Source: Prorocentrum cordatum
Taxonomy: Eukaryota
Assembly: GCA_963575745.1 (NCBI GenBank)
Contig: CAUYUJ010000103.1
Coordinates: forward strand, 496,001 to 560,000
Direction of reading: 5' to 3'
DNA length: 64,000 nucleotides
The notes beneath the pieces are model-generated. The model worked only from the letters and a program-made list of their open reading frames with translations, was not told the DNA's origin and searched no databases. Below, piece after piece: positions 10,405 to 42,278 of the stretch. Each line of letters opens with the position of its first letter. Position 1 is the stretch's first letter. The position numbers and the translations under genes were made by a program.

Positions 10405-10565
10405 CAGGAGGGAAAAAACACAGACACAATTAATCGACGATTCCCCAGAAAATATGGGAAAATATGGGCGGTGGGGGGGGGGAAGACAAAAACCAAGAAA
10501 ATATGGGAGAATATGGGGAATATTTTATTTGTGTGTATTTATTTGTGTGTCCCAGTTCCCCTTCA
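10405..10565 (+). repeat. Approximately 160-bp host repeat (GAAAATATGGG family), uninterrupted copy
   Basis: Homologous to 41741-41903 and to the split copy 33805-33923 plus 41057-41093. Confidence 0.8.
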
Positions 10566-11989
10566 GAGGTGGTTGGTTCGAGAAGGGTTTTGGCCTTTTC
10601 GGTCTCTGGGGGCCAGTCCCAGGTCCCAGGACCGCTAAAAACGGATCCGTGTGAAAAGCTGCGCCAGACGGACCCTGGGAGGCGCCAGGGACATGTTACA
10701 CAATAGGTGCGCAGACTGACAGCAGCTCCTGTCTATTTTTGATGGGATTCGCTGTCGCGGATGTGGTCCATTTGAGACAAGGCCGCCCGCCCAACCTCTG
10801 CCGCTGTTGGTTCTGGACATTATTTGCTGATGGGCATGGTACCCATTTTTTCCGTACCCATGTCGGGCGTCCAGCGAAACGGTTGATGGACAAATTCTTT
10901 AACCTTGTATGCTGGTTTTTGTGAACATCCCCGGCGCCCCCAATTGCGGGCTGCGCCGCGATGTCTAGATCTGTCGACTGGCCAAAATCCTGCGCCCCGC
11001 TGGTGATGCCAACCAACATTGGATTGGGCGCAGGGGGCGCGTTGAAATTTGCGCTGGCCCCCCTCGCCGCGTGGGTGGTGGAGGACTTTGCCCATCAGCT
11101 AGGACTCGTCATGAAGCCAAAGGGGTCCCAGAGGTTTTCCGCCGTTTCTCGGGCCCCAATGGTCCTCCACGGGCCCTGGGACCGTCCAAAAACAACTCAG
11201 GTTGAAGAATTGGTCCCCGAGGAGGGCCCCGAGGTTCAGGACCCGGTTTCCCTCAGGACCCTTTTCTGTCATGGTAGAATACAGCGCGCCTCCGTCCTAC
11301 ATGACCCCCCTCCCCCAACCCTGGGAGCGCGCCCTGAAATCCTGGCGTCGCAGTTTTTCACAGCGGACGATTCTGCTCTGTTTCGGGACCCCAGGGCCCT
11401 CACGGATCGATACGGCCCGAAAAATGCACCAGAAAGATGGGTCCAGGGGTTTGGCCGAATTTTTGTACGATGTTGCAGTGTTTTCGTGACGTCGGATTCC
11501 AGGGCACGTCCATCCCCAGCTGGCCCCCCTTCCCCACAGGAAGGGGGATGTGGGGGTCGGGGCATTCTCTTGGTCAATACATGCTTTGGGGACTTTCTTG
11601 GGGTCCACCAAACGGACTCGAGTTTTGGGCGCTGGCTCGGCTCGAGCTTGGCTCGAGTCAGCGGACGTTCGACGCAATCTCGGCACGGGCGTTTTCTGCC
11701 GCTGCTGGCAGTCGGAGGGTTCAACACACTCCACTCCCTGGTAAAGTCATTCGCGGGGTCCAGAGCTCCCCCCGCCCTCTTCCGCGGGAAAATGATTCGA
11801 GGGTTCCAGAACACCCCCTGGCAACGACGACGACGACGCCGATGACGACGTCGCCGACGACGACGACGGCGACGGCGACGGCGAGGGCGACGACGCCGAC
11901 GCCGACGCCAACGACGACGACGATGACGAAGACGACGACGACGCGTACGACGACGCGTACGTCGACGCGTACGACGACTCCAGCGACGA

Positions 11990-26744: not shown

Positions 26745-27502
26745 CACAAGCAGCTGCAGGCAGACCCCGCACCCTCACTGCAGCACGCCGCGCGCAAACC
26801 CTCAGACGACGACGCCCTCCTCTCACGCCGCCCCAGGCCACCCGCCTTTTGGTACGGCTGGACCGAGGCCTGAGATCGAGGTCAGTTCGGAGAGGGCACC
26901 CTAATGTTCTTCGTGCTCGCTGGATGTTCTTGTGCATCCAGGGGAGGGTACCCTTGGCCATTCTGTGTGTCTGGGCCCGCGGTGGGTCTCGTGTTCTTGA
27001 AGGATGTTCTTCTGCCCTAGGTCCGATTGTAGGTCGGGGGCCATGGCCCACATCTCGACTGCCTTGCGGGGAACGCGGCACGACTACTGTACGCACAGGG
27101 ACCACCATCCTGGGTCAAGGGAGGAAAAAACCACCCGTACCTGACAATTGGCGTTCACAAAGCGGCCTTGGGCGATTGCTAAGCAGCCCTGCCCATCTCG
27201 ATTCCTTCCCAGGGTGCGTTCACTGGACGGCTTCGCTTGTCGGAGTGCTTATTGTGGGGGTGGGTTTTCTGCACTCCACTGGGTGGGCCTTGTGCGTAGT
27301 CTTGTGTAGGACGATCAAAGGAGGAGAAACATGTTGCAAAATATTTTCCAGATGTCTAAAGCATATGTTAAGCATGTTTCGAACATGTAAAAAACATGTT
27401 TCAAACACGCTTAGAACATTTTTCCGACATCTTAAACACATCCTAAATTCAAGGATAGAACTGTGCTGGTGTCCACTGTCGTGGCATCCACAAGCGTAGT
27501 CG

Positions 27503-27522
27503 CGTAGCCGTTTTGGCTCAAG
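27503..27522 (+). other. Relict dinoflagellate spliced leader (DinoSL)
   Basis: CGTAGCCGTTTTGGCTCAAG versus the DinoSL 3' 20-mer CGTAGCCATTTTGGCTCAAG: 19/20. Followed by GC-rich UTR-like sequence, not by an SL-RNA GT donor. Confidence 0.85.
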
Positions 27523-28043
27523 CTGCTCCGGCCCACGCTGCCCGCAGCCTCCCGCGGCGGTCTCCGCGCGCCTCCCGCGCGGCCCCCGGCACGCCAACCG
27601 CTCCTCCTCCTCCTCCTCCTCCTTCCTCCTCCTCCTCCTCCTCTTCCCTTCTCCTCCTTCTCCTCCTCCTCCTACTCTTCCTCTTTCTCCCTCCTCCTCC
27701 ACCTCCTCCTCCTCCACCTCCTCCTCCTCCTCCTCCTCCTCCTCCTCCTCCTCCCTCCTCCTCTTCCTCCTCGTCTTCCCTCCTCCTCCTCCTCCTCCTC
27801 CTCCTCCTCCTCCTCCTCCTCCTCCTCCTCCTTTGTTTCCGATTCCTGCCCTTGCGAGCTGGCCACTCTGTTTGGGAGCCATGCCCCGCGGACCTTCGGC
27901 GACCCGCTGGACGTTGACGCAAGTCTCGACGCGACCCTCGACGCCAGCACCCGCTCGGGCACCGAAGCCCGCAGCATCGACGCCAGCACCGCTTCCAGCA
28001 CCGAAGCAAGCAGCATCGGCGCTGGCACCAACGCCAGCTCCGA

Positions 28044-28094
<51 letters not shown>

Positions 28095-31000
28095 AGCGAC
28101 GTCAGCAGCATCATCAATGCCGTCTCCGACGCCAGCACTGGCTCCGGCACCGACGCCCGCAGCAGCATCGACGCCACCACCACCTCCAGCACGGCGGCCA
28201 GCGGCATCTGCCCCGGCGCTCCGACTGGCACCGGCGCAAACAGCAACGACGCCGGCACCGACTCCGGCGCCGACACCAGGAGCATCGACGCCAGCACCGG
28301 CTCCAGCGCCGGCGTGGGTGGTGCCCAGGTGCAGCGCCGCCCTGCACCGCCGCACGGTGGCCACGAGCACGACCCCGACGACAACGGTCGCCGTCGTGGT
28401 AGTGCTGGTGGTGCTGGTGGTGCTGGTCGTAGTGGTGCTGCTGGTCGCAGTCTCGGTGCTGCTGCTCCCGGTTGCGGTGGTCGTGGTCGTGGTCGTGGTG
28501 GTGCTGAGGGTCGCAGTCGTGGTGGTGGTGCTGCTGGTCGCAGTCGTGGTGGTGGTGCTGCTGGTCGCAGTCGTGGCGCTGCTGGTCGCAGTCGTGGCGC
28601 TGCTGGTCGCAGTCGTGGCGCTGCTGGTCGCAGTCGTGGCGCTGCTGGTCGCAGTCGTGGTGGTGGTGCTGGTCGCGGTCGTGGTGGTGGTGCTGCTGGT
28701 GGTGGTGGAGGAGGCGGAGCGCGGAGGGAAGCAGGAGCGAGGAGAAGCAGGAGCGAGGAGGCGGAGCGAGGAGGAGGAGGAGGAGGAGGAGGAGGTTCTG
28801 GGACGCTGCGAGTTTAGGCGGCGTCCGTTGGATTGTGGGGTGCTGGGCTTGGTAGTGCGGGGGCGAAAAGACGGTCTTGAGCATGTGCTGTGACAGGAGG
28901 AAGACAGGAGGACGAGGAGGATAAGGAGGAGGATGAAACGGATGAGGAGGGAAGAAGAGGGACGAAGAGGGAGATAGATGATGAGGATGACGAGGAGGGA
29001 CAGGAGGAGGCGATGCTGTTGAATCGTGTTTCGCCGATCTCGGCTTTTCCCTGCTGGTGTCTCCCTGCCCAGCGAGGAGGGCGGAATAGCTGGTCCACAT
29101 TGTGTGTTTCCTTTCGCGCACGCCCACCTGGTCTGCGCAGAAATTCCACGTCTATAGTTGGGACTCACATTTTGATTAACGAAATACCGACAGGCTCAAA
29201 GGGACCAACCCAGCATCACAATCACCTCGTGTCTTTCCAACGCTCTGCAACAGCTGTTCGAAAGATAGCGTTTTCAGCGCAATTCAAGGCCACGCCAAAA
29301 GTGCATTCGCTGATGTGCATCACAGCCTTCCCAGAAGGCCTGGGACAAGTTGGAGCGCACGTAGCAGTGGAGGAGGACGACAGATGGGAGCAGTAGAGGT
29401 CATCTGGCAGCTTTGGAAAGACGCGGCCCTCCAGCTCGTCAGCGACAGCTTCATCGAAGAGGCCGAGGCCGCCGTTACGAGGAGGAGAGTGATGATAAGG
29501 AGCAGGAGGGAAGGATAATGATGAGGAGCAGGAGGGAAGGATGCTGAGAGCTCTGGTCGACGTCTCGCGGTCTCCCTCCTGAGCCAGTGCCGCCCCGTCG
29601 AAAATTAGCACCATTCCCTGACATGCCCACACTGTCAATCCTCCCCTCCCCCATGTCCTTCCTCCTCCTTTTTCCTTCGAGCCGTCATCCTCCCTCTTCC
29701 TCTTCGTTTGGGGGAAGAGGGGGGGGAGAGGGATCAGGAGGGCGAATCGGTGGGGGACGATCGCACGGGGAGAGGGGGCAGGATTGTGAGGAGGAGTTGA
29801 GATTCTGATGCGCTCCACAACTTCTGACGGATCTAACGGGGAGATGGAGGGCGTTTACATGGACGTCAGTTTCATGCGCGGCGTCGGGGCCTAATTTCTC
29901 ACGTGTGATGGGCCGAACTTCACGTCTGGAGGTTACGATCGTCTTGGGTTGGCTCGTGCACTAGGTAAACTCTGGATGCCGCCGAAAGGTTGAGTTCACA
30001 CAAGGACATGCTGCATTGCTTGCATGCCCTATGTCTTTCCGCTAGCTGGAATGAGGTACCATGCGCCGCACCCGCGCGGGACGCCAGTTCCGAGCGACGT
30101 GCGCATGGAGCTTGGACGAGGGCGACGACTGTCGTCGGGCGATGGGTTGCCCAGAAGGTAGTATCCGAAAAAAGAAAAAATCCGGCATCCAGAATCGGGG
30201 GCTCACGCGCTATGGCCCTCCCGGGCCATCCGAGAGACCCGGAGTTATGGGAAGCCCGAAAGCATCGAAACTAATCTGAACAATCGGCTGGCCATGGGTT
30301 CCCCACAGTTCAAATTGCGTAGAACCCGACAATCTCAGCCAGCGTGGACCCCAAATAGCTTAGACGACTCAAAGCAAGGAATCAGAGGAAACAAGCATGC
30401 TTGGAATCCGCAAGACAGCGAGCAAGCAAGCAAGCAAGCAGGCGTAGGCATAGGCATAGGCGTAGGCATAGGAGTTAGGGGGAGGCATCGGCATATGCAT
30501 AGGCATAGCCATAGGAATTAGGGGGGGCATAGGAATCAGGGAGGGGGGCAACGGACCAATTAGAAGGGTTTGAGCTAGGACTCCTACAGGGCAAGCTTAT
30601 TTGGGGAACATCGGTGCAGTCGGATGGCTATGGGCTGCCGGCAGTTCCGAACCATGGGAACCCATAGTCAGCCGATTGCACACACGTGCTTCCAGTGTTT
30701 CTGGGCTTTCCACAATACGGACTTATTGGAAACACTTAGCCAACCCTTTTCGCATGTTTCCAATTCTCTAGGTTACCCCAAATTCGACGTCCCGAAGGGT
30801 CTTGCTATTCGAATTGAGTTGTGGGAAACCCATATCCAGCCCATAGCACGCATGTTTTTCAGTGTTTCTGGGTTTCCAGATGCGGTTTCGGGCTTCCCGT
30901 AATAATTCGGGCTTGCGGCAAACCCATAACCAACCGATTGCACACATTCTTTTCTGTTTGTCGGGTTTCCCATAATTCGACGCCCCGAGGCATTCGCTAT

Positions 31001-31250
31001 TCGAATCTGGGGAAGACCATCTTCAGCCCATCGCGCGCGGTTTTTTCAGTGTCCCCGGGTTTCCCATCTCCGTTGGAGCTCTTCCGATTTCCCCGGACGT
31101 CCGGAATTCGAATTCTCAGAAATCTGCCGCAGCGTTTTGCCCCAAACGTACAAACCGAGGCGGGAATTTATACATGACCACCGCCTGGAGGATCAATTTT
31201 CGGGGACCTCGGCAGGCGGTGGATATGGACATATTCGGGCCCCCAGGGGG

Positions 31251-31292
<42 letters not shown>

Positions 31293-31295
<3 letters not shown>

Positions 31296-31975
31296 CTTCT
31301 ACCTATCAAATTACAAGGAAAAACCCGGCATGTCACCGACACCCCCCCCCACATGGACCCCAGATGAACCCCACAGGCCCCCAAGAGAGCCCCACAATGC
31401 TTCGAGGCGGCCCAAAATGCCCCGAAGAGAGCGACACGAGGCCTACATCGGGAGCCCAAGACAGCAGAAGGCACTTCCCAGACGTCCTCTGCAAGGCCCA
31501 AGAGGCCCCAAGACGGCCCCAGAGTGCTCCAACAGGACCAAACATGGGCTCAAGACGGCCCAGGATGCCCCCGCAAAGACCTCCAATACGGCCTCAGCAG
31601 GCCAAAAACCTTAATTTTCCGTTGGTTTTTGAACGACTCTGTGCTTCTCGCCTTTTCTGGCCACGAACGGCCCAAGAATGGTCTGCGAGCTTCCGAGGTC
31701 GCCCCGAAATGGCCTCCAGGCGGCCCAATGGGGCCCCAAGATGGGCCAATAAAGCGCCAAGAAAGCCAGGGAGTGCCCAAAAGACCCTTAAAAGACCTCC
31801 AAGAGGGCCCCAACAGAGCCACGGGATGCTTCAGAGAGGGCCCGAGAGAGCCCCAACACGGCCCCAGGACGGCCCAAGCCCCCCCAGACAGCCCACAAGG
31901 GCCCCAGGACAGCCCAAGAAGGCCCTCCGATGGTATACAAAAGCACCAACAGGAGCTCCACTCAGTCTTAGGGCC
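31293..31975 (+). repeat. Dispersed repeat of about 680 bp, copy 1, preceded by (TA)n
   Basis: Near-identical to 51791-52473 (TTCCTTCTACCTATCAAATTACAAGG...CTCAGTCTTAGGGCC). Confidence 0.9.
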
Positions 31976-32054
31976 TCCTCCTTCTCCCTTCCATTTCCTC
32001 CTCCTCCTCCTCTTCCTCCTCCTCCTCCTCCTCCTCCACCTCCTCTTCATCCCG

Positions 32055-33740
32055 AACGGCATCTCGGAGCCTAGAATTGCGAGGATGTCTCCAGCGTGAC
32101 GGGCTGGACCACCTCGCGCGCGGCATCTCGGACCCCAGAGTTGCGACGATGTCTCGGGCGAAACGTGCTGCGAGGAAGTCTCAGGCGAAACGGGCCGGAC
32201 CACCTCGAGCGCGGCGTCTCAGAGCTCCGAGTTGCGGGGGCCTCCTGGGGCCTCCAGGGGCCTCCTGGGGACCTCTTGGAGCTCTCTCCTGGGCCTCCTG
32301 TGGCCTCGTGAACTCCGCCTGGGGTTTCCTGAAGCCTCTTGGGGCTCCCAGGGGGGATATCTGACCTGTGGCCGCTTGGGCCTCTCAAAATGGAGGGGAG
32401 GGGCACAAGAGCAGGAAGAATCAACGAACCGACACCGGATGTGTATTATCTTGACACGTTCTGATAGGGGGCCTCCTGGAGATCTCCTGGGGGCCCCTGG
32501 GGCCTGTCCTGGGCGTCCTGCGGCCTCCTGGACCTCTCTGGGGCCTCCTGGGGCTCCCAGGGTCCCAGGGAGGATATGTAATGTAACATGTGGTCTTCTG
32601 GGCCCCCAGGCTGGACCACCTCTTGCGCGGCATCTGGGAGCTCAGAGTTGCGAGAATGTCTTGCGCACGGCATCTCAGAGCTCAAAGTTGCGAGGAAGTC
32701 TCAGGCGAAACGGGCCGGACCACCTCGCGCAGGGCATCTCAGAGCTCAGAAGTTCGAGGATGTCTCAGGCGGGCTCCCAGGGTCCCGGGGAGGATATGTA
32801 ACATGTCCTGGGCGTCCTGCGGCCTCCTGGTACCTCCAGGGGCCTCCTGGGGACCTCCTGGAGCTTCCTCCTAGGCCTCCTGTGGCCTCCTGAACTCCAC
32901 CTGAGGTTTCCTGAAGCCTCTTGGGGCTCCCAGGGGGGATATCTAACCTGTGGCCGCTTGGGCCTCTCCAAATGGAGGGGGGGCACAAGAGCAGGAAGAA
33001 TCAACGAATCGACACCGGATGTGTATTAACTTGACACGTTCTGATAGGCGGCCTCCTGGGGCCTCCTGGGAGCCTCCTGGGAATCTCCTGGGGGCCCCTG
33101 GGGCCTGTCCTGGGCGTCCTGCGGCCTCCTGGACCTCTCTGGGGCCTCCTGAGGCTCGCAGGGTCCCATGGAGGATATGTAACATGTGGTCTTCTGGGCC
33201 CCCAGGCTGGACCACCTCTTGCGCAGCATCTGAGAGCTCAGAGTTGCGAGAATGTCTTGTGCGAAACAGGCCGGACCACCTTGCGCACGGCATCTCAGAG
33301 CTCAGAGTTGCAAGGATGTCTCAGGCGAGACGGGCCGGACCACCTCGCGCAGGGCATCTCAGAGCTCAGAAGTTCGAGGATGTCTCAGGCGAAACGGGCC
33401 GGACCACCTCTCGCGCGGCATCTCCGAAGTCAGAGTTTCGAGGATGTCTCAGGCGAAACGGGCCGGACCACCTCGCGCAAGGCATCGCAGAGCTCAGAGT
33501 TTCGAGGATGTCTCAGGCGAAACGGCCCGGACCACCTCTCGCACGGCACCTCGGGGCTCAGAGTTTCGAGGATGTCTCAAGCGAAACGGCCCGGACCACC
33601 TCTCGCGCGGCGTCCCGGAGCGCAACTTTTCGAGGATGTCTCAGGCGAAACGGCCAATCCCGGCCAACTCAGAAACGAGAGTTGTGAGGATGTCTCCAGC
33701 GAAACCGCCAAAACCATAAAATTTTAGTGAGGATGTCTCT
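32055..33740 (+). repeat. Compound tandem repeat (about 66-bp GAGGATGTCTCAGGCGAAACGGGCCGGACCACCTC units and GGCCTCCTGG blocks, with an approximately 600-bp duplication)
   Basis: Visible repeats; the GAGGATGTCTCNNGCGAAACG motif is shared with the 42.6-46.6 kb elements. Confidence 0.8.
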
Positions 33741-33920
33741 GCTCCGCGTTCCCACGGCCGGAGTTAGTTTCTATCACAACAGCACCCCGTTCAGCAAGCT
33801 GTTTGGGGAAAAACACAGGCACAATTCATCGTCGATTCCCCAGAAAATATGGGAAGATATGGAAAGTGGGGGGGAAGACCAAAGCCAAGAAAATATGGGA
33901 AAATATGTGGGAGATGTTTA

Positions 33921-34056
33921 AATGATTATCTTTGGATGCAGTTTTCCTCCGCGTCGAGCGGCCAAGCGAGAGGGGCTTCTCCCCTTCCGTCTTCTCTTCT
34001 GCTCTGCTCTCCTGCTGCTGCTCTCCCCTCTCGCGGCCATTCTGGTTTCAAGGCTT
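33921..34056 (+). repeat. Split direct repeat A1 (136 bp)
   Basis: AATGATTATCTTTGGATGCAG...TTTCAAGGCTT; one C/T mismatch to A2 by eye. Confidence 0.95.
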
Positions 34057-34078
34057 GCATGGGCCAGCGTCGCGCCGG

Positions 34079-34753
34079 ATGCCCCTTCCCCTCGCGGCCC
34101 TCGGGCAGTGGGGCGCGGCGCTGGTTTCAGTCTGGGCCAGCCGCTGCCCCGCCTGCCCGGCCTGCCCGCCCTGTGGGTCGGTCAACGTCACCTGCGGCAA
34201 CTGCCCGGCGGCGCCTGCGGTGGCGTGCCCAGCAGTGCCCGACCCTCGGCCCTGCCCCGAGCTGTCCTGCCCGGCCCCCGCTCCGGCCGCGCTGGACTGG
34301 GCCTCGTGGCTGGGGCTGGGTTGGGTCCTGGGCGTGCTGTGCGCTGTGGCGGCGCTGGCGGTCTGCGCGCCCGTCGCAGCCCTACTGCACGGGTTCACCG
34401 CGCGGGCGCCGGCGCGCCCAGCAGGCGACGGCGGAGCTGGGGGCAGGGCCGAGACCCTGGACATCGTCGAGAGCCAGGTCTGCATCGCCTTCGACGACGA
34501 CCCGAACTTCAGGTGGCACCGCCGAGTGCTACTGGTCCCCTCGCCCACGCCTGGGCACTGGGTGGCCGCGACACCCGACGCCGAGATCTACCTCTTGAAG
34601 CTGGACGAGCACCTGGTGGTCGCCCTTCCGCGGGCGGCCGCGTTCCCGCAGAGAGTCCGAGGCCAGGTCTACGCGTTCGGGGCCCTCTCGGACGCCGACC
34701 TGGCCAACCTCCGCCGCGACGGGCGCAACTTCGCGAAGGTGCTGGGCTTTCCC
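34079..34753 (+). CDS. ORF1 N-terminal part: Cys-rich and transmembrane segment followed by the Gag-like N-terminal domain
   Basis: ATG at 34079 in the 33932 frame. MPLPLAALGQWGAALVSVWA (hydrophobic), CPACPACPPC...CPELSC (9 Cys, NVT sequon), WASWLGLGWVLGVLCAVAALAVCAPVAALL (TM-like), then globular-looking TLDIVESQVCIAFDDDPNFRWHRRVLLV...FAKVLGF. Protein-like sequence moves to the +1 frame at TTTCCCCATC (about 34748-34757). Gag assignment is by position. Confidence 0.6.
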
Positions 34754-34754
34754 C

Positions 34755-35615
34755 ATCCCCGCGGTGCAGGCGGGGGTCGACGTCCCGAGGTGGATCGTCT
34801 CCGACCCCGCGATCGACCACTTCGGGGAGGAGGTGAGCCTGGAGCCGATCACCTCGGCCGAGCGCTTCATCGGGCGGGACGCGGTGGCGCTCGTGATGCT
34901 GTCCGACGCCGAGGGCTGGGTCGCCGCCGAGAACGTCCAGCTCAGCGACGAGCCAGACTGGAAGGCGGAGAAGAGGGCCGGTCCTGGCAGGGACCGCCGC
35001 GTGCTGCCGCAGACGGGCGTGCCCGCTCAGACCGTCTCTCTAGCGCAGCTGGTGGCTCTGCTGAAGAGCGTGGACGTGGGCGACTGGCCCTTCGAGGGGC
35101 CCAAGGCCCTGGTCGAGTTATTAGCCGCGGTGGTCTCGTCTGGGCACTCGCTCTCGTCCTGCTGGGGCTTCTGGGTGGCCCAGTCGGGGGTCTCGCGCGC
35201 CAGCGCCGTCGCCCAGGAGCTGAAGAACATCGTGGAGGTCTTGCACCATGCGCTGGTCTTCGACGCGCTGGACGTCTCGAACCTCGCCTCGCTCGAGCTC
35301 CTGAGTCGCCGGGGCCTCCAGATCCAGAGGGCGGTCAAGCGCTGCCCGCGCCGCCCGCCCTTCGAGGTGCTGGAGTTGATGGTGTCGAGCCGCCTCGACG
35401 ACTCAGGCGGAGCCGTCACGACCAATTTCGACGCGTGGGTCGCCGACCAGCAGAAGGCGAGGAGCACCGTCCTCAAGCAGGAGAGGATGTACAGGGAGGA
35501 GGCCGACCACGAGGACAAGACGTACCGCCACGAGCAGAGGGACGAGGCAAGGCCCCCGCGCCCCAAGGCCAAGCCGAAGGGCAAGGCCGGGGCTGGGCCG
35601 GCCGGTGCTGGATAG
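34755..35615 (+). CDS. ORF1 C-terminal part (Gag-like), +1 frame relative to the N-terminal part
   Basis: Track ORF 34764..35615 has protein-like composition (DWPFEGP, WGFWVAQSGV, FDALDVSNLASLELLSRR) and a basic tail (KAKPKGKAG); it lies upstream of pol. Confidence 0.7.
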   Translation: MPAVQAGVDVPRWIVSDPAIDHFGEEVSLEPITSAERFIGRDAVALVMLSDAEGWVAAENVQLSDEPDWKAEKRAGPGRDRRVLPQTGVPAQTVSLAQLVALLKSVDVGDWPFEGPKALVELLAAVVSSGHSLSSCWGFWVAQSGVSRASAVAQELKNIVEVLHHALVFDALDVSNLASLELLSRRGLQIQRAVKRCPRRPPFEVLELMVSSRLDDSGGAVTTNFDAWVADQQKARSTVLKQERMYREEADHEDKTYRHEQRDEARPPRPKAKPKGKAGAGPAGAG

Positions 35616-35686
35616 CAAGCCGGGGGCCTCCGCGCCCCCCTCGGCCGCGGCGCCACCTGCCGCGGCCGTCGGCACACCGCGTCGCC

Positions 35687-38600
35687 ATGGCCACCACCTT
35701 GGACCGCGGCTGCCTCCCCGTCGAGGGTTCCTCCTCGCGGGGGCCCCCACCCTTGTTCCCGCTTCCGGTCACGGACGCCTTCTACTCGCATCCACCGCGA
35801 GGGGAACGTACCGCTTTGCCTCGGTATAAAGCGCAGCGTGCTGCCGCTGCTGATCGTCGCTCGGCCCGTGCCATCGAGACGATCACGACCCTCAATGGGA
35901 TGGCCGCCGCCTGCGCTGGGAGGGAAGGCGCGCTTCGGCCCCCTCAGAGGACTGGGAGCGCCGACATCGCCCAAGAGTCGGCGCTCAGGCGCATCCGCCG
36001 TCGGATCGCGGCCTTCGGTGATCGGCCCGCCGACTTGGATGGCGCTGGAGCCCTTCAGGAGCTCCTCAAGTCCAGGGGCGTCTACGGCGGCCTCGACGCT
36101 TCCACGACTGTGGTCGATTTTGATCCGAGCCGCCTCGACATCCTGCGCAAGGGGCATTTTTCAACGCCACTCGACGACGTGGCCCCTCAGAGCGTCATGG
36201 ATGTGATGGACAATTTTGACACTGCCGTCGCCCGCCCGCTCTCCGAGCTGCCAGAGGACGAGCCGCTGGTGCAGCCGTACTGGGGCCCGCAGCTCGACCC
36301 GCGCCGGCGCGGCACGCGCCCCGCGCTTGTGGCCTTTCTTCGCGCGCTGGCTCTCCGAGGGCTCGTGGGAGCTCGGGCCCGTCGGAAGGCGTGCATCTCC
36401 GCGTTCTTCGTGCGAAAGAAGAACGGTGATCAGAGGATGGTGCTGGATGCCCGGCAGGCCAACCAGTTGCAGCGCCTCCCGCCCAAGACCGCGCTGGCCT
36501 CAGGAGAGGCGCTCGCGGCGATCAACCTCGTGGACGCCACCGACCTCGGCCCCGACGACCTCGACATCGTGGCGACCGGGGGCGACTTGGTGGCCGGCTC
36601 GGTGGACCTGCAGGACGGCTTCTACCAGTTCCGCCACCCGGCCTGGGGCTCCTGGATGCGCTTCGACATCGAGATGGACGCCGGCGAGCTGGGGGCGACC
36701 CAGCTTTACGACGAGGAGCTCGGCCGCTACATCGACATCAGCCTGGACTCCCGAGTCTGGCCCTGCTTCGAGGCCCTTCCCATGGGATGGTCATGGGCCT
36801 TGTGGATCTGCCAGGAGGTCCTGATCGACGCCATGGGCGCCGTCTTCGGGGACAAGGACTCCTGGTGCCTGGACAAGGGCAAGCCGCCCTCCTTACTGAA
36901 TGGGGGGGTTGCCCATGCGCCCTACGTCGATAACGCGAACCTCATCTCCTTGGACGCCGGCCAGCTCGACCAGCGCCTCGGCGCCGTGACGGGCGAGCTG
37001 GACAAGAGGGGGCTCCGCTGGCACGAGCTGCAGCATGCCACCTCGTCGCAGGGCATCCGCGGTCTCGAGTTCGATGGCCGACACGGGCGCCTTCGCCACA
37101 CATCGCGGCGAGCCTGGCGCCTGTGCCTTGGCCTACACGAGGTCCTACGCAGGCCCAGGCTTGCCCGCTGGCAGGTCAGGAGGTTGCTGGGACACATCGT
37201 GCACTATTTCAGCATGATGCGGCCCGCCCTCAGCGCGCTGGGCGAGTGCTACGCCTACCTCGAGTCGGGCCCTATGGAGGGCGTCTCCCGCTTGCCGTCC
37301 AGCGTGCTGACGGAGCTTCGCTGCGCTGCTGGCCTCGTGTTCCTCGGCCAGGTGGACCTGCGCCGACCTCCTGCGCCGGTGTCCTTCACCACGGACAGCT
37401 CGACGCTGGGGCGCGCCGTCTGCGAGGCCGAGCTCTTCGGGGACGAGGTCCTCGGCGTGTCGCGGTGGCGCGAGAGGCAGCGCTTCAGCGAGGTCGAGGT
37501 CTCCGGCGACCCCGACAGGGACGCCTACCTAGGCCGCGCCGCGGGGCTGGCCGACGTCTCCGACCTGTACTACGATGAGCTCGGCGACGCCAGCGCGGGA
37601 CGCCCCCGCCGGCAGGCGCGGGCCCGCCGCCGTCGCCAGGAGATGGAGGTGGGCCGCCCCCCGCCTCCGCTCCCGCCCGAGCTGGTCGACCCGCAGCGGT
37701 GGACCGAGGCCTTCCGAGGCGCGTGGCGCCACCCCGGCCGCATCCACAGCCTGGAGGCTCGCGCCTCGGTGATCGGGCTGGGCGCGGCCGCGCGCCAGGC
37801 CAACTGCAGTGGGACCGAGCTGCAGAGCCTCTCGGACAACCTCTCCAGCGTGCTGTCGTTCGAGAAGGGCCGCGCCAGTAATCGGGAGCTCCTCGCCCAA
37901 TGTCGTCGGGCCGGCGCCTTGCAGCTGGGCACCGAGATCACGTGGCGAGTGCGACACGTTCCAGGATGTGTGAACGTTGCTGACTGGGGGGGCCGGGCCG
38001 CAGATCGCCGCGAGCTCCTGCCTGGCTGGATCCGCGGGGTCGGCTTCAGGGCCTGCCCGCCGGCGCCCAGCAGGTGCGCTCCCGTCGCGAGGCCCAGCGG
38101 CAGCCCGCCAGGTCCCGGGCCTGAGGAGCCCGGGCCCCCCATCGCCAGCGTTGCCTTCGCGACTCGGCCGTCCCCGAGCCGCGTCTCCGAGCCTCCAGGG
38201 CTTGGGGGGAAACATATTGGTTGCACGGGACAGTGGAGCGAGGACCTCGCACAAGGGATCATCCTCTCTACCACCCCAGCTGAGTCTGTTCTCCCATCCT
38301 GTCCTTCCCCTCCTCCATCATGCTCCACTTCATCGAGACCACGTACAGGTTATTGTTCACAGATTGGGTCGTCGCGCTCTTCGTCGGGTTACTGGCCTCA
38401 TATTGGGTCTCCAACTGCATCGGCTCATCAGCGACCCCAGGCTGGGCCCCCAGCTTCTTCGGCTTCTTGGGCGTCACGGGACAGGCCACCAACATCATCA
38501 TCGAGTCAAGGTCCCCAGGCTGGGTCATCAAGCTCTTCGGCTCCTCCTCGGGCGCGCAGCGGGCCTCGTAAGTGGTGCTCCTCGGGGTCTTCGTCTACGG

Positions 38601-39442
38601 CCCCGCGGGGCCAGCAGTCTAGCCGCGCCAGCTTCCTGGAGCTATTTGCTGGAGGTGCAAACCTATATGGGGCCTTCCGCGAGGCCTGTTTTCGCATTGC
38701 CTGCCCTCTGGACATTGCAAACGGCAAGCATCATGACCTCGCGCATCCTGGAGTCCGTAACGCTGTCTTGGCTTGGATTACTCAGCGCCGTTTCTGGTGC
38801 ATACATTTTGGCCTTCCGTGTGCCCACTGGGTGCCGGCTGGGGGCAACCGACCTCCACGCCCGGCAGACCTCGCTCTCGTCAGCTTCGCCGTGCGGGTGC
38901 TCAAGCTCTGCAGGAAGCTCAACATCTTCGTTCTCCTCGAGAACCCTGGCCCCAGCCGGGTCTGGCGCTGGGCGCCCCTGGAGAGGGAGCTCCGCTACCA
39001 CAGGCCCGGCAGGGTCGAGTGCGACTCCTGCCGCTTCGGGGCGCCCTTCAAGAAGCCAGGAGCGGTCGCCGGCGCGTTGCCGAACCTGGAGCTGCTGGGC
39101 CGGCGGACTATCTTGGCGGGCGCGTACCTCCCCGAGTGGTGCCGAGAGCTCGCGCGCATCGCCTCGCTCTCCGCCCCGAGGTCCGCCTATGGCCGAGCCA
39201 CGCCCAGAGACCTCGCGACTTGGGATGGCGTCCTGGCAGCCGCGTCGGGCGAGGTCCGCCTCCGTGCCCCCGGCCTCCCGCTCTGCCCGCGGAGGTTCAG
39301 GCCCCCTTGGCGAGCCGCCTGGGCCTCCGCGCTCGACCCGCGCCCCCGCCCCCCGGGCGGCGGGCGGGCCTCGCAGCGCCGCCCCGCCCCCAGGCGGAGG
39401 CCAAGCGCGGGGCCGTCGGGCGCTGGCGGCCGAGCGCCGTAG
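35687..39442 (+). CDS. Pol polyprotein: reverse transcriptase, RNase H and C5 DNA methyltransferase-like domain (about 1251 aa)
   Basis: ATG in GCCATGG context at 35687. RT motifs FFVRKKNGDQRMVLDAR, DLQDGFYQ (36605), LPMGWSW (36776), YVDN (36923). RNase H motifs TDSS, IHSLEAR, SDN, NVAD (about 37390-37995). MTase motifs FLELFAGG (38633), GLPC (38810-38821), ENP (38939), DSCRFG, AGAY. Confidence 0.9.
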   Translation: MATTLDRGCLPVEGSSSRGPPPLFPLPVTDAFYSHPPRGERTALPRYKAQRAAAADRRSARAIETITTLNGMAAACAGREGALRPPQRTGSADIAQESALRRIRRRIAAFGDRPADLDGAGALQELLKSRGVYGGLDASTTVVDFDPSRLDILRKGHFSTPLDDVAPQSVMDVMDNFDTAVARPLSELPEDEPLVQPYWGPQLDPRRRGTRPALVAFLRALALRGLVGARARRKACISAFFVRKKNGDQRMVLDARQANQLQRLPPKTALASGEALAAINLVDATDLGPDDLDIVATGGDLVAGSVDLQDGFYQFRHPAWGSWMRFDIEMDAGELGATQLYDEELGRYIDISLDSRVWPCFEALPMGWSWALWICQEVLIDAMGAVFGDKDSWCLDKGKPPSLLNGGVAHAPYVDNANLISLDAGQLDQRLGAVTGELDKRGLRWHELQHATSSQGIRGLEFDGRHGRLRHTSRRAWRLCLGLHEVLRRPRLARWQVRRLLGHIVHYFSMMRPALSALGECYAYLESGPMEGVSRLPSSVLTELRCAAGLVFLGQVDLRRPPAPVSFTTDSSTLGRAVCEAELFGDEVLGVSRWRERQRFSEVEVSGDPDRDAYLGRAAGLADVSDLYYDELGDASAGRPRRQARARRRRQEMEVGRPPPPLPPELVDPQRWTEAFRGAWRHPGRIHSLEARASVIGLGAAARQANCSGTELQSLSDNLSSVLSFEKGRASNRELLAQCRRAGALQLGTEITWRVRHVPGCVNVADWGGRAADRRELLPGWIRGVGFRACPPAPSRCAPVARPSGSPPGPGPEEPGPPIASVAFATRPSPSRVSEPPGLGGKHIGCTGQWSEDLAQGIILSTTPAESVLPSCPSPPPSCSTSSRPRTGYCSQIGSSRSSSGYWPHIGSPTASAHQRPQAGPPASSASWASRDRPPTSSSSQGPQAGSSSSSAPPRARSGPRKWCSSGSSSTAPRGQQSSRASFLELFAGGANLYGAFREACFRIACPLDIANGKHHDLAHPGVRNAVLAWITQRRFWCIHFGLPCAHWVPAGGNRPPRPADLALVSFAVRVLKLCRKLNIFVLLENPGPSRVWRWAPLERELRYHRPGRVECDSCRFGAPFKKPGAVAGALPNLELLGRRTILAGAYLPEWCRELARIASLSAPRSAYGRATPRDLATWDGVLAAASGEVRLRAPGLPLCPRRFRPPWRAAWASALDPRPRPPGGGRASQRRPAPRRRPSAGPSGAGGRAP

Positions 39443-40466
39443 GCGGGCGGCAGCGGCGGTGGATCGCGCCGAGCAACAGCGGCGAGCTCGCCGAGTGCCT
39501 CCTGGTGATTTCCTGCGTACGGCTTCGTTGCGGCCAGCGACCCTGACAAAGTATCAGCAGGCGGTCGCCGACTTCGAGGCCTGGGCTCGTCGCCAGCGTC
39601 TTCTCTTTGACAATCCAAAGAATGCCGACACGTCAATGAACTTGTACATTGAGCACCTTTTCTTTTCTGGATCTCCCCAGTACATGGCTCGCAATGCACT
39701 TTACGGTCTTGTTCGACTCCGAGGATGGGCTGTGGCCAAGCCTCACTTTGTGCGATCCAAAGATGCCCTGGCGGGCTGGTCTGCCAAGCTACCACGGCAT
39801 CCCAGGATGCCAGCCCCCTTCGACGCCGTCGTTGCCTGCATGGGGGCCCTCTCGGAGCGCTCCACGTTGGGGGCCCTCGCCGCCGTGGCCATGATAGTCC
39901 AGTTTGACCTGTACCTGCGGCCCAGCGAGGTGCTCTCCATCACCGCAGGCGACGTCCACGGCAGCGCGGGGGGCCAGGTCTCCGTCATCATCGCGCCTCT
40001 CACAGGCGGAGTGCCGTCCAAGACGAACGAGTTTGACCGCACTGTCGTTGCTGGCACGCCTGTCCCCCTTAGACGCCAGGTACCGGCTGCGCTACTCGCC
40101 CTCCGCAAAGGCCGAGCAGACGCGGCCAAGCTTCTTGCTCCTCTGAATCTCAGTGCATACGAGAGGCTCGTGCGGGGCGTAGCCTCCAACATAGGTCTGT
40201 GCCACGTCTTCTCCGTGCCTCATCAGCTTCGGCACGGAGGCCCCTCGCATGACGCTCTGGAGCATTTGCGTAGCCTGGATCAGATCCAACAGCGGGGGAG
40301 ATGGCGCGCACGAGAGTCCGTGCGCATCTATGAGAAGCACGGCTCACTCTTGCGTCAGCGTGCCGCCGTGCCTGCCGCCGTCCGTCAACGGGCCGCCCGT
40401 TTCTCGGCGGCGGATCTTCGCCACCTCGTCTCTCGCGTTGCCAGTTCGAGTCGGGTGCCAAGCTAA
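39189..40466 (+). CDS. Tyrosine recombinase (about 425 aa), overlapping the 3' end of pol in another frame
   Basis: Catalytic set present: R in YLRPSE (39918), K in SKT (40020), HQLR (40221-40232), W in RGRW (40302), Y in RIYEKH (40329). Start uncertain (ATG 39189 or 39225). Confidence 0.92.
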   Translation: MAEPRPETSRLGMASWQPRRARSASVPPASRSARGGSGPLGEPPGPPRSTRAPAPRAAGGPRSAAPPPGGGQARGRRALAAERRRRAAAAVDRAEQQRRARRVPPGDFLRTASLRPATLTKYQQAVADFEAWARRQRLLFDNPKNADTSMNLYIEHLFFSGSPQYMARNALYGLVRLRGWAVAKPHFVRSKDALAGWSAKLPRHPRMPAPFDAVVACMGALSERSTLGALAAVAMIVQFDLYLRPSEVLSITAGDVHGSAGGQVSVIIAPLTGGVPSKTNEFDRTVVAGTPVPLRRQVPAALLALRKGRADAAKLLAPLNLSAYERLVRGVASNIGLCHVFSVPHQLRHGGPSHDALEHLRSLDQIQQRGRWRARESVRIYEKHGSLLRQRAAVPAAVRQRAARFSAADLRHLVSRVASSSRVPS

Positions 40467-40529
40467 TATTATCTTTTTCTTTTCTTCCCAACCCGCCCAC
40501 CCAATGACAACTGAATTGGGGGTGGGAGC

Positions 40530-40714
40530 CAATGCTACGCAGTCTGTTCTGGTGATTTGATCCGGGCCCGGGTCCTTTTCCCATCGCTGCCAAGCAAGCT
40601 CAGCATTATATAATCTCAAGTGCACCTCGTCCTGAGCAAGGACGCGTCCTCGTGAAAAAGTGGATCGTCCGTCTCATGTATGTTCGAATGGTGGCCGCGC
40701 CTAGCTTGAGGAAT
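40530..40714 (+). repeat. Split direct repeat B1 (185 bp)
   Basis: CAATGCTACGCAGTC...CTAGCTTGAGGAAT; one C/T mismatch to B2; overlaps A2 by AAT. Confidence 0.95.
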
Positions 40715-40847
40715 GATTATCTTTGGATGCAGTTTTCCTCCGCGTCGAGCGGCCAAGCGAGAGGGGCTTTTCCCCTTCCGTCTTCTCTTCTGCTCTGCTC
40801 TCCTGCTGCTGCTCTCCCCTCTCGCGGCCATTCTGGTTTCAAGGCTT
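40712..40847 (+). repeat. Split direct repeat A2
   Basis: Copy of 33921-34056. Confidence 0.95.
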
Positions 40848-40871
40848 CCCTCCCTACCCACCCTGGGGAGT

Positions 40872-41056
40872 CAATGCTACGCAGTCTGTTCTGGTGATTT
40901 GATCCGGGCCCGGGTCCTTTTCCCATCGCTGCCAAGCAAGCTTAGCATTATATAATCTCAAGTGCACCTCGTCCTGAGCAAGGACGCGTCCTCGTGAAAA
41001 AGTGGATCGTCCGTCTCATGTATGTTCGAATGGTGGCCGCGCCTAGCTTGAGGAAT
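40872..41056 (+). repeat. Split direct repeat B2 (element 3' end)
   Basis: Copy of 40530-40714, separated from A2 by a 24-bp spacer. Confidence 0.95.
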
Positions 41057-42278
41057 TTGTGTCCATTTATTTGTGTGCCCCAGGGCCCCTTCAGTGTGGC
41101 GAGTCGGTCTCGGGTCGCTCTCCGACAGCATCTTCGGGGCGGGGCGCACCCGCTCCCGCGCCCCAGTTCGGGTTCGCCCAGGAACGGAGGGCCCCCGAAC
41201 GGTGCGGTGACCACACCGTGTGGTGAGTCGGTGCCCGTCCGTGCACCAGCGCGCCGAACCAGATGATACCATTTGGGTACACTTTCATGTCAGCCCTATC
41301 CTCTTCCCTCCTCTCCTCCCGCCTCCCTGGTCGCGTCTATTGGTATTTTTTCGCGTGCTGGTGCCTGAGAGTGCTGGTGCCGAGTCAGTGGAGATTCGGG
41401 GTGGCCGCACGGTTTTGGGACTCGGGTCGTTCTCCGGGGTCGCCTTGGGCGACCGGCCTCGGAGGTCCCAACATCGTGCGGTGGCGGACCGTGGGGTGAG
41501 ATCGTTGGGTGTTCCCAGGTCACCGCGCGGTCCGTCTCCATGCCGTCCTGGGGTCCCCAAGGAAGCCCGGTCGAGACAACGGCGGCCCTTTTCTCGGGGA
41601 CCGAGTGCTCCTGATCATGATGCCAGCTCCAGGACTGCCCAGGTGCGGGATCAAGGAAGGAGGGCCGCTAGATGCTCCAGAGCTCCTGGAACGCATCCAG
41701 AGCCAATCGCATCATGACTTCATGCTCGTCGGGCTACTGCCAGGAGGGGAACAAACACACAGACACGATTAATCGCCGATTCCCCAGAAAATATGGGAAA
41801 ATATGGGAAGTGGCGGGGAAGACAAAAAACCCAGAAAATATGGGAAAGTATAGGTAATCCTATTATTTGTGTGCATTTTTTTGCGTGTCCTGGGGCCCCT
41901 TCATACCGACGTGCTTCGTCCCTCCGGAGTCTCCCGGAGACTTCTCGGCGCAGACGGATCCGGATGGACCTTGGGAGGCGACCCTGGGAGGTGTCCGGAG
42001 GCCGCAGGGCTTGACCCAAACGGTGGTTCTGGCGATTTCGGGAACCGTGCTCGTTTTGGCTTCGTTTTGCAGCGAAGGCGAAACGCAGACAGAGCGAGGG
42101 AGAACGAAGACGCAGCGAGGGATTTTGTCGAGCCCTGGTCTGGAGGCCGATCTCGAGCTTGTCTGGCCCACGAGGGGCGTCCAAGAGGGGGGTGCTCCGA
42201 GCCGGGCCGGCCGAGGCCGCGGCCCGTCTTCAGGAGAGCAGGAAGCCATGATAGAGTTAAGTCGGGCGTGTCCCTCTA

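What the first reader, a model, noticed from the sequence alone, without database searches (positions are those of the whole stretch)
34000..34081. The element's A repeat ends in a spliced-leader mimic behind a polypyrimidine tract, just upstream of the first ATGs
Seen: CGCGGCCATTCTGGTTTCAAG (34032-34052, and 40823-40843 in A2) aligns to the DinoSL 3' 20-mer at 16/20 with one extra T; all four mismatches are transitions. About 55 nt of C/T-rich sequence precede it, it ends in AG, the A repeat stops 4 nt later, and ATGs follow at 34059 and 34079. Established: dinoflagellate mRNAs are SL trans-spliced. Inference: the repeat either carries a captured SL relic or acts as a trans-splice acceptor. 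Trans-splicing would remove A1 and so separate translatable mRNA from replication-competent genomic RNA, and SL similarity in A2 might still permit strand transfer from SL-capped RNA.
Basis: partly seen in the sequence, partly recalled or inferred. Interest (0 to 1): 0.8.

Follow-up and report, generated by a model that had tools for sequence, protein, structure and literature searches.

The report
Weak spliced-leader look-alike in retrotransposon repeat
The inner end of a repeat in a dinoflagellate jumping gene loosely resembles the short leader these algae splice onto their messages, but the likeness is about what chance allows and could not be tested against RNA or related copies, so it is an open lead, not a finding.

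Summary
The sequence facts are correct. CGCGGCCATTCTGGTTTCAAG lies at 34032-34052 and 40823-40843. It differs from the last 20 bases of DinoSL by four transitions and one extra T. It follows a 57-nt, 88% C/T tract, ends 4 nt before the A repeat ends, and precedes ATGs at 34059 and 34079.

The element (33921-41056) is a young split-direct-repeat (A1-ORFs-B1-A2-B2) tyrosine-recombinase retrotransposon. Its closest named relatives are Prorocentrum cordatum gene models.

The leader likeness is weak:
- 300 window shuffles give 5.9 +/- 2.4 sites of equal quality, against 5 observed.
- Against the 21-mer it needs 6 edits, and the longest exact word is 6 nt, so it fails the published 9-mer relic criterion.
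- 25 other tracts as C/T-rich lie in the window.
- Position is the only pointer: P = 0.012 for the 158-nt leader and about 0.0005 for the last 10 nt of A.

ATG 34079 is the real ORF1 start. A1 and A2 carry the same 21 bases, so the last round did not copy a canonical leader into A1.

No RNA run, genome or related DNA could be reached, so conservation and leader-joined transcripts remain untested.

My odds: coincidence about 0.5-0.55, decayed leader relic about 0.3, functional mimic under 0.1. Use of the AG as a trans-splice acceptor is plausible but unshown.

The parts
33921..34056 (+). A1, left copy of the A repeat (136 bp); the only element sequence upstream of ORF1
   Evidence: 135 of 136 identical to 40712-40847. 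The left border is fixed by empty paralogous sites and by contigs that join 33901-33910 to 41055-41066.
33975..34031 (+). C/T-rich tract, 57 nt, 87.7% pyrimidine; part of a 78-nt stretch without AG (33973-34050)
   Evidence: sequence read.
34032..34052 (+). Spliced-leader-like 21-mer, ending in the candidate acceptor AG (34051-34052)
   Evidence: 4 substitutions + 1 insertion against the DinoSL 20-mer.
34059..34061 (+). Upstream ATG, out of frame with ORF1
   Evidence: Only 1 of 11 listed differences of relatives falls on a third position of this frame.
34079..35615 (+). ORF1 (Cys-rich/hydrophobic leader plus gag-like domain). It starts at ATG 34079 and is shifted into the next frame by one extra C in the C-run 34746-34749.
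   Evidence: The P0005 N-terminus aligns to the M at 34079. 9 of 11 listed differences at 34099-34378 are synonymous third positions. Frames by tblastn; C-run.
35873..39442 (+). pol ORF: divergent reverse transcriptase and RNase H (about 36533-38100) plus a C-terminal domain without a Pfam match
   Evidence: tblastn of P0003, P0005, P0008. 2989 relatives at E<=1e-3. A family profile hits 13 RT/Gag-Pol chains among 14 PDB matches. Sub-threshold RVT_1 in P0006, P0084, P0098.
39501..40466 (+). Tyrosine recombinase ORF
   Evidence: Phage_integrase E=0.047, below the cut-off. 34% identity, E=6e-38, to the part of P0018 that matches Phage_integrase at 9.8e-4. LRPSE, HQLRHGG and RIYEK motifs read.
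40524..40714 (+). B1 repeat (191 bp)
   Evidence: 189 of 191 identical to B2.
40712..40847 (+). A2, internal copy of A, overlapping B1 by AAT; carries the second copy of the 21-mer at 40823-40843
40848..40865 (+). 18-nt spacer between A2 and B2, loosely like the sequence before B1
   Evidence: Sequence read.
40866..41056 (+). B2, right end of the element
   Evidence: right border from the empty sites.
10410..10566 (+). Empty paralogous copy of the host repeat into which the element inserted (a second one lies at 41753-41903)
   Evidence: BLAST of both flanks; sequences.

Best explanation
The 21-mer is the inner end of the 136-bp A repeat of a young, almost intact split-direct-repeat (A1-ORFs-B1-A2-B2) tyrosine-recombinase retrotransposon of a Prorocentrum-type dinoflagellate.

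Shown: the anatomy, the insertion borders, the ORF1 start at 34079, and the near-identity of A1 and A2.

Inferred: the two A copies are identical while a relative's A differs, so A1 is rebuilt from A2 in each round, as the left repeat of DIRS-1 is rebuilt from its internal copy. The template RNA should therefore begin at or near the inner end of A. The AG-free C/T-rich 78 nt and the first AG after it (34051-34052), 26 nt before the start codon, are a reasonable place for the host to add its spliced leader to the element's mRNA.

The likeness of the last 21 nt to the leader itself is most likely coincidence in a pyrimidine-rich leader. None of the above requires it.
For: Anatomy:
- Repeats.
- Empty sites and joining contigs.
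- RT/RNase H and tyrosine recombinase.
- The A-coding-B-A-B layout and an RT that escapes Pfam are described for Symbiodinium DIRS elements (PMC5890265, passages).

Chance level of the likeness:
- 5 sites observed against 5.94 +/- 2.40 in 300 shuffles.
- 6 edits against the 21-mer.
- The longest exact shared word is 6 nt, against the 9-nt criterion of PMC5585692.
- One of the other equal-quality sites, at 53810-53827, lies in CAAGATGG-type short repeats and is plainly spurious.
- 25 other tracts as C/T-rich.

ORF1 start: P0005 alignment and 9 of 11 listed differences synonymous in that frame, P=0.0014.

Homogenisation of A: A1 and A2 match in 135 of 136 bases, while one X1 contig laid on A shows three 1-nt indels at 40782, 40795 and 40797.

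DIRS-1 precedent: its transcript and cDNA lack the left repeat, which is restored from the internal complementary region (PMC7192593, passages).
Against: - Position is not what chance favours. In local shuffles, P=0.012 for a match anywhere in the 158-nt leader and 0.0005 for one ending in the last 10 nt of A1. These figures are post hoc.
- Leader relics are common upstream of dinoflagellate ORFs (about 23% of Symbiodinium genes, abstract of PMC5585692).
- A true relic lies in this window at 27501-27522.
- Earlier unchecked notes on this genome report leader copies in LINEs and copia LTRs. The prior for a real relic is therefore not small.
- The RNA start near the inner end of A and the use of the AG as acceptor are inferences only.
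- The out-of-frame ATG at 34059 would stay in an mRNA spliced at 34052.
Confidence: 0.5

Rival explanations
1. Decayed relic of the spliced leader. At some past round a leader-capped transcript of the element was reverse transcribed. The leader was fixed at the border between A and the unique part and later spread to both A copies. Its terminal AG is re-used as acceptor, as in recycled dinoflagellate retrogenes.
For: - Place and orientation fit: the match ends in AG, 26 nt before the ORF1 start, at the inner end of A.
- Local chance P is 0.012 to 0.0005.
- All four mismatches are transitions.
- Relics are frequent in dinoflagellates (PMC5585692), and one lies at 27501-27522.
- Leads only: notes e1-7628710, e1-7626221 and e1-7627054 on leader copies in other retrotransposons of this genome.
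Against: - Window-level chance expectation equals the observed count.
- It fails the 9-nt exact criterion.
- The first two leader bases do not match.
- 111 nt of element-specific A lie upstream of it, inside the element, so it does not mark the 5' end of the retro-copied unit.
- A relic captured from capped RNA should sit in A1 only. Its presence in A2 needs an extra step such as gene conversion.
- Three of the four transitions are C/T swaps expected in a C/T-rich stretch.
Confidence: 0.3
2. Functional mimic. Trans-splicing at 34052 removes A1. The leader on the RNA then pairs with the look-alike in A2, so that reverse transcriptase can jump and rebuild A1 from leader-capped mRNA.
For: - The A repeat ends 4 nt after the AG, as expected if the RNA's 5' end defines the repeat border.
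- The A copies are homogenised.
- DIRS-1 shows that the left repeat is restored from an internal copy.
Against: - A1 and A2 carry the same 21 bases with the same five differences from the leader. A copy made this way should have the canonical leader in A1.
- Pairing would be 16 of 20 with a bulge, and two mismatches lie near the cDNA's 3' end, where extension is most sensitive.
- There is no sign of selection for leader identity.
Confidence: 0.07
3. Own promoter, no role for trans-splicing. A1 is a promoter-plus-leader, the RNA starts at a transcription start site inside A, and both the C/T tract and the AG are incidental.
For: - In DIRS-1 the left repeat lies upstream of the transcription start (PMC7192593).
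- C/T-rich tracts are common in this window.
- No acceptor consensus is known in dinoflagellates (PMC2488372).
Against: - Trans-splicing of nuclear mRNAs is described as general in dinoflagellates (abstracts of PMC5585692 and PMC6050394).
- Two ATGs in A1 (33922, 33936) and one at 34059 would burden an unspliced leader.
Confidence: 0.2

Closest known systems
SymbioDIRS / SymbioDIRS-Dnmt3 retrotransposons of Symbiodinium (de Mendoza et al. 2018, PMC5890265; passages read)
   Same: The A-coding-B-A-B repeat layout. A pol ORF with an RT too divergent for Pfam. A separate tyrosine recombinase ORF. A dinoflagellate host.
   Different: The closest named relatives here are Prorocentrum cordatum gene models. 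No Pfam-detectable cytosine methyltransferase in the pol C-terminus. ORF1 begins with a Cys-rich/hydrophobic leader. That paper's main text has no occurrence of 'spliced leader', and its three supplementary files held as text gave none either.
PAT-like and Ngaro-like elements, order DIRS (Goodwin and Poulter 2004, as described in PMC3783388 and PMC7192593; passages)
   Same: Split direct repeats A1-B1A2-B2. gag-like, RT/RNase H and tyrosine recombinase genes. No target-site duplication beyond a shared trinucleotide (AAT here).
   Different: Very divergent RT with a YVDN motif C. Phylogenetic placement among PAT, Ngaro and DIRS was not tested.
DIRS-1 of Dictyostelium (Cappello model; Malicki et al. 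2020, PMC7192593; passages)
   Same: Works alike by inference: the left repeat lies upstream of the RNA start and is restored from an internal copy.
   Different: DIRS-1 has inverted repeats and an internal complementary region, not direct split repeats. The RNA ends of the present element are unknown.
Relic DinoSL of retroposed dinoflagellate genes (Song et al. 2017, PMC5585692; Slamovits and Keeling 2008, recalled through those papers)
   Same: Leader-like word ending in AG just upstream of an ORF.
   Different: No exact 9-mer. It sits not at the 5' end of the retro-copied unit but after 111 nt of element sequence, and it is present in two copies as part of a repeat. The true relic at 27501-27522 has 1 substitution.

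Membership tests
Split-direct-repeat tyrosine-recombinase retrotransposons (order DIRS: PAT/Ngaro-like, SymbioDIRS) | Repeats in the order A1 - coding - B1 - A2 - B2 | tested here: met
   A 33921-34056 / 40712-40847 (135 of 136). B 40524-40714 / 40866-41056 (189 of 191). No further copies in the window.
Split-direct-repeat tyrosine-recombinase retrotransposons (order DIRS: PAT/Ngaro-like, SymbioDIRS) | Reverse transcriptase and RNase H in a pol ORF | tested here: met
   Weak but consistent. Pfam finds nothing in the window's own protein. The family profile hits 13 RT/Gag-Pol chains among 14 PDB matches at E 0.04-0.3, all on the motif C stretch. Among the 35 distinct homologues scanned over two calls (3 were scanned in both), 3 give sub-threshold RVT_1 (E 4e-6 to 2e-5) and 1 gives a hepadnaviral RNase H domain. 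PMC5890265 states that these RTs escape Pfam.
Split-direct-repeat tyrosine-recombinase retrotransposons (order DIRS: PAT/Ngaro-like, SymbioDIRS) | Tyrosine recombinase instead of a DDE integrase | tested here: inconclusive
   Phage_integrase E=0.047, 13.9 bits, against a cut-off of 27.1. Homology at E=6e-38 to P0018, whose aligned part matches Phage_integrase at 9.8e-4. R...HxxR...Y-like motifs seen by eye. No fold was made.
Split-direct-repeat tyrosine-recombinase retrotransposons (order DIRS: PAT/Ngaro-like, SymbioDIRS) | Insertion without target-site duplication, ends sharing a short word with the B-A junction | tested here: met
   Two empty paralogous sites and joining contigs fix the borders. 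AAT stands at both ends and at the B1/A2 overlap. No longer duplication.
Relic DinoSL (retroposition mark) | At least 9 consecutive leader bases without mismatch within 500 bp upstream of the ORF (criterion of PMC5585692) | tested here: not met
   The longest exact shared word is 6 nt (GCCATT). 4 substitutions + 1 insertion over 20 nt.
Relic DinoSL (retroposition mark) | Marks the 5' end of the retro-copied unit | tested here: not met
   The element begins at 33921, so 111 nt of A precede the motif inside the element.
Relic DinoSL (retroposition mark) | More leader-like than chance | tested here: inconclusive
   Window level: 5 observed against 5.94 +/- 2.40 expected. Local level: P=0.012 for the leader and 0.0005 for the end of A; post hoc.
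Spliced-leader trans-splice acceptor | AG at the junction | tested here: met
   AG at 34051-34052, the first AG after 78 AG-free nt. A second AG lies at 34066-34067, before the start codon.
Spliced-leader trans-splice acceptor | Transcripts with the leader joined at that AG | not testable with these tools
   No reads of RNA could be laid (see Tried and rejected).

The most novel reading that the evidence does not exclude
A tyrosine-recombinase retrotransposon of a dinoflagellate has built a worn copy of the host's spliced leader into the inner end of its A repeat. The leader added by trans-splicing then acts like the R region of a retrovirus: leader-capped mRNA pairs with the look-alike in A2, and the missing A1 is rebuilt from it. 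The element would need no promoter of its own and could ride on host read-through transcripts.
Probability: 0.07. Interest if true: 0.8.

Novelty: new member of a known kind. Interest (0 to 1): 0.35.

Why it matters
How tyrosine-recombinase retrotransposons with split direct repeats start their RNA and rebuild their left repeat has not been shown experimentally; the only tested model I found is DIRS-1 (PMC7192593). How retroelements cope with universal leader trans-splicing in dinoflagellates was not addressed in the passages I read. My two searches for DinoSL together with retroposition or retrotransposon terms listed no paper whose title or abstract start concerns a leader copy inside a retrotransposon repeat, and the retrotransposon passages of PMC12014239 mention none.

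If the motif proved to be conserved and leader-joined transcripts mapped to its AG, this element would link host mRNA processing to the copying cycle of a third retrotransposon class in this genome. As it stands, the element is an ordinary, well-preserved member of a known class, and the leader likeness is a lead of about even odds.

Tried and rejected
- RNA: no RNA holder listed. The look-up of sequencing runs listed 5 runs, none on record as RNA, so no leader-joined reads could be sought.
- Contigs of relatives: four DNA runs were laid and pieces fitted (X1 2477, X2 429, X3 22, X4 1). The tables are cut (968 substitutions and 26 indels not shown) and show no letters for 34032-34052 or 40823-40843, so conservation of the motif cannot be read from them.
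- Whole genome: not held.
- Related DNA, all without confirmed relatives:
  - Viral contigs with the recombinase and with alignment A3;
  - Metagenome contigs with A3 (428 pattern matches, none confirmed) and with ORF1 alignment A4 (82, none);
  - Genome contigs with A4 (49, none).
  - Alignments A1 and A2 were too diverse for that tool.
- Protein searches meant to catch translations running through A:
  - the N-terminal query including translated A1 (3 hits, all on the ORF1 domain only, among 8000 candidates scored);
  - the B1-A2 ORF (34 candidates, none significant).
- A second family member in the window: tblastn of all stored family proteins gave 269 hits, 0 outside the element.
- Rfam: no match in the window at gathering scores, nor in 33800-34200 at E<=1.
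- Pfam, NCBIfam and PDB with single sequences of the window's proteins gave nothing useful.
- Supplements of PMC5890265 held as text contain no element sequences and no leader motif. One supplementary PDF was too large to be read and may hold figures of the elements.
- Zhang et al. 2007 (PMC1838650) is not held.
- Rejected: the SL-like hit at 53810-53827 (-) as a relic; it lies in CAAGATGG-type short repeats.
- Rejected: the 1838-aa ORF as one gene. It is a stop-free reading of GC-rich DNA across three genes and a frameshift.

Full report
**The observation**

The 21 bases CGCGGCCATTCTGGTTTCAAG stand at 34032-34052 and again at 40823-40843. The dinoflagellate spliced leader is printed in PMC5585692 as DCCGTAGCCATTTTGGCTCAAG. 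Against its last 20 bases the motif has four substitutions and one inserted T. By eye the substitutions are T>C, A>G, T>C and C>T, all transitions.

The preceding 57 nt (33975-34031) are 87.7% C/T. No AG occurs from 33973 to 34050, so the AG of the motif is the first after 78 nt. The A repeat ends at 34056, and ATGs follow at 34059 and 34079.

**The element**

The repeat finder and a self-BLAST give A1 at 33921-34056 and A2 at 40712-40847 (135 of 136 identical; the mismatch is 33979 C against 40770 T). They give B1 at 40524-40714 and B2 at 40866-41056 (189 of 191). There are no other copies in the window.

Both flanks recur, joined to each other, at 10410-10566 and 41753-41903. Contigs of two DNA runs join 33901-33910 directly to 41055-41066. 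The element is therefore an insertion of 7136 bp into an abundant host repeat. AAT stands at both ends and at the B1/A2 overlap, and there is no longer duplication.

The inside is 67-72% G+C, against 55-62% around it, so all frames are long. The 1838-aa reading is not one gene. tblastn with relatives resolves three genes:
- ORF1 from 34079 to 35615, shifted by one extra C in the C-run 34746-34749;
- pol from about 35873 to 39442;
- a recombinase ORF from about 39501 to 40466.

Pfam does not see the RT in the window's protein. The RT/RNase H part nevertheless has 2989 relatives at E<=1e-3. A profile of 25 of them hits 13 RT or Gag-Pol chains among 14 PDB matches. Three of the 35 distinct relatives scanned over two calls reach sub-threshold RVT_1.

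The recombinase part gives Phage_integrase at E=0.047. It is 34% identical (E=6e-38) to the stretch of P0018 that matches that family at 9.8e-4.

De Mendoza et al. [quoted passage not shown] The closest relatives that carry a name are Prorocentrum cordatum gene models.

**Where ORF1 starts**

P0005, a relative about 50% identical, begins with an M that aligns to the M at 34079. It shares the Cys-rich and hydrophobic leader that follows.

Of the 11 differences that one search lists between the window and X1 contigs at 34099-34378, 9 are synonymous third positions in the frame of ATG 34079 (P=0.0014). Only 1 falls on a third position in each of the other two frames. That table shows only the best-supported rows.

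ATG 34079 is therefore the start, 26 nt after the AG. The ATG at 34059 is out of frame.

**Is the likeness more than chance?**

At window level it is not. With up to 5 edits the window holds 5 sites:
- the two A copies;
- a true relic at 27503-27522 (1 substitution);
- two unrelated sites on the minus strand, one of them inside CAAGATGG-type short repeats.

300 dinucleotide-preserving shuffles give 5.94 +/- 2.40 such sites, 0.38 with up to 4 edits and 0.017 with up to 3. 30 shuffles counted by regex gave 4.7 +/- 1.6.

The match was framed on the 20-mer. The two bases before it do not fit the leader, and with the 21-mer at up to 5 edits only the true relic is found. The longest exact word shared is 6 nt, below the 9 nt that PMC5585692 requires. 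Three of the four transitions are C/T swaps in a C/T-rich stretch, so 'all transitions' carries little weight. Tracts as C/T-rich occur 25 more times in the window.

What remains is position. In 20,000 shuffles each, a match of this quality appears:
- in the 158-nt leader with P=0.012;
- in A1 with P=0.009;
- ending in the last 10 nt of A1 with P=0.0005.

These figures are post hoc. They still mean the coincidence is not trivial, given that leader relics are common in dinoflagellate genomes (abstract of PMC5585692).

**What the two A copies say**

A1 and A2 agree at all 21 bases of the motif and at 135 of 136 overall. One X1 contig laid on A differs from the window by three 1-nt indels at 40782, 40795 and 40797. 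The A copies of one element are thus kept alike while the family drifts, which points to copying of one A from the other in each round.

This matches the only tested model of the order. In DIRS-1 the transcript and the cDNA lack the left repeat, and it is restored from the internal complementary region, which is essential (PMC7192593, passages).

By that analogy the template RNA of this element should start at or near the inner end of A, that is, in or beside the 21-mer. This is inference.

A copy made from leader-capped RNA should hold the canonical leader in A1 and the worn form in A2, but this copy has the worn form in both.

**How it most likely works**

I read A1 as the element's upstream region, rebuilt from A2 each round, and the inner end of A as the place where the RNA's 5' end is made.

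In an organism that trans-splices its nuclear mRNAs, the first AG after a long AG-free stretch, 26 nt before the start codon, is a reasonable acceptor. It would also remove the two ATGs of A1 (33922, 33936). A second AG at 34066-34067 would additionally remove the out-of-frame ATG at 34059.

None of this is shown. A polypyrimidine tract is not an established signal here. Bachvaroff and Place found the acceptor to be 'clearly an AG' with no consensus features and a flexible choice of AG (PMC2488372, passages).

I judge the leader likeness itself as coincidence at about 0.5-0.55, a decayed relic at about 0.3, and a working mimic at under 0.1.

**Limits**

The two tests that would decide the matter could not be run; the attempts are listed under Tried and rejected. 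Earlier notes of this scan on the same genome report leader copies at the start of LINEs and inside copia LTRs. I used them only to set the prior and did not check them.

**Novelty**

The element is a new, well-preserved member of a known kind. In the searches made and the passages read I saw no report of a leader copy inside a tyrosine-recombinase retrotransposon repeat. If the motif proves real it would be new, but the present evidence does not carry that claim.

Noticed in passing
window 27501-27522 (+): A true DinoSL relic (1 substitution against the 20-mer), preceded by a GCGTAG stub and followed by GC-rich and then CTC-repeat sequence. It marks a retro-copied unit of unknown content: five ORFs at 27500-32071 downstream of it gave no Pfam match.
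   Followed up: partly
window 36920-36935 (motif C of the RT); alignment A1: The RT motif C of this family reads YVDN instead of the usual Y-x-D-D. D and N are invariant in 25 of 25 aligned members, while a closer subfamily shows VDK/VDD/VDH. Whether such an RT is active is open.
   Followed up: no
window 33805-33920 + 41057-41100; also 10410-10566 and 41753-41903: The element sits in a very abundant host repeat (summed word depth about 15,500 in X1 against 20-60 over the element), with many empty copies. Whether this family targets that repeat cannot be told from one insertion.
   Followed up: partly
window 34079-34440: ORF1 opens with a Cys-rich stretch (CPACP...CGxCP) and a hydrophobic segment, shared with P0005 at about 50% identity. 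This is unusual for a gag-like protein. Closer relatives P0153 and P0154 are called from an ATG just before the conserved domain, where X1 contigs carry 53 letters in place of 12.
   Followed up: partly
window 34746-34749: One extra C in a C-run shifts ORF1 relative to all relatives. It is either the only disabling mutation of an otherwise intact copy or an assembly error in a homopolymer.
   Followed up: partly
window 38543-39439: The pol C-terminus after RNase H is shared with P0008 and P0030 and shows LFAGG, LPC and ENP words that recall (from memory) cytosine methyltransferase motifs I, IV and VI. Pfam gives no DNA_methylase match at E<=1.
   Followed up: no
window 33141-33716: Tandem array of 64-nt units just upstream of the insertion site.
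   Followed up: no
window 53720-53830 (-): CAAGATGG-type short repeats that produce a spurious leader-like hit.
   Followed up: yes
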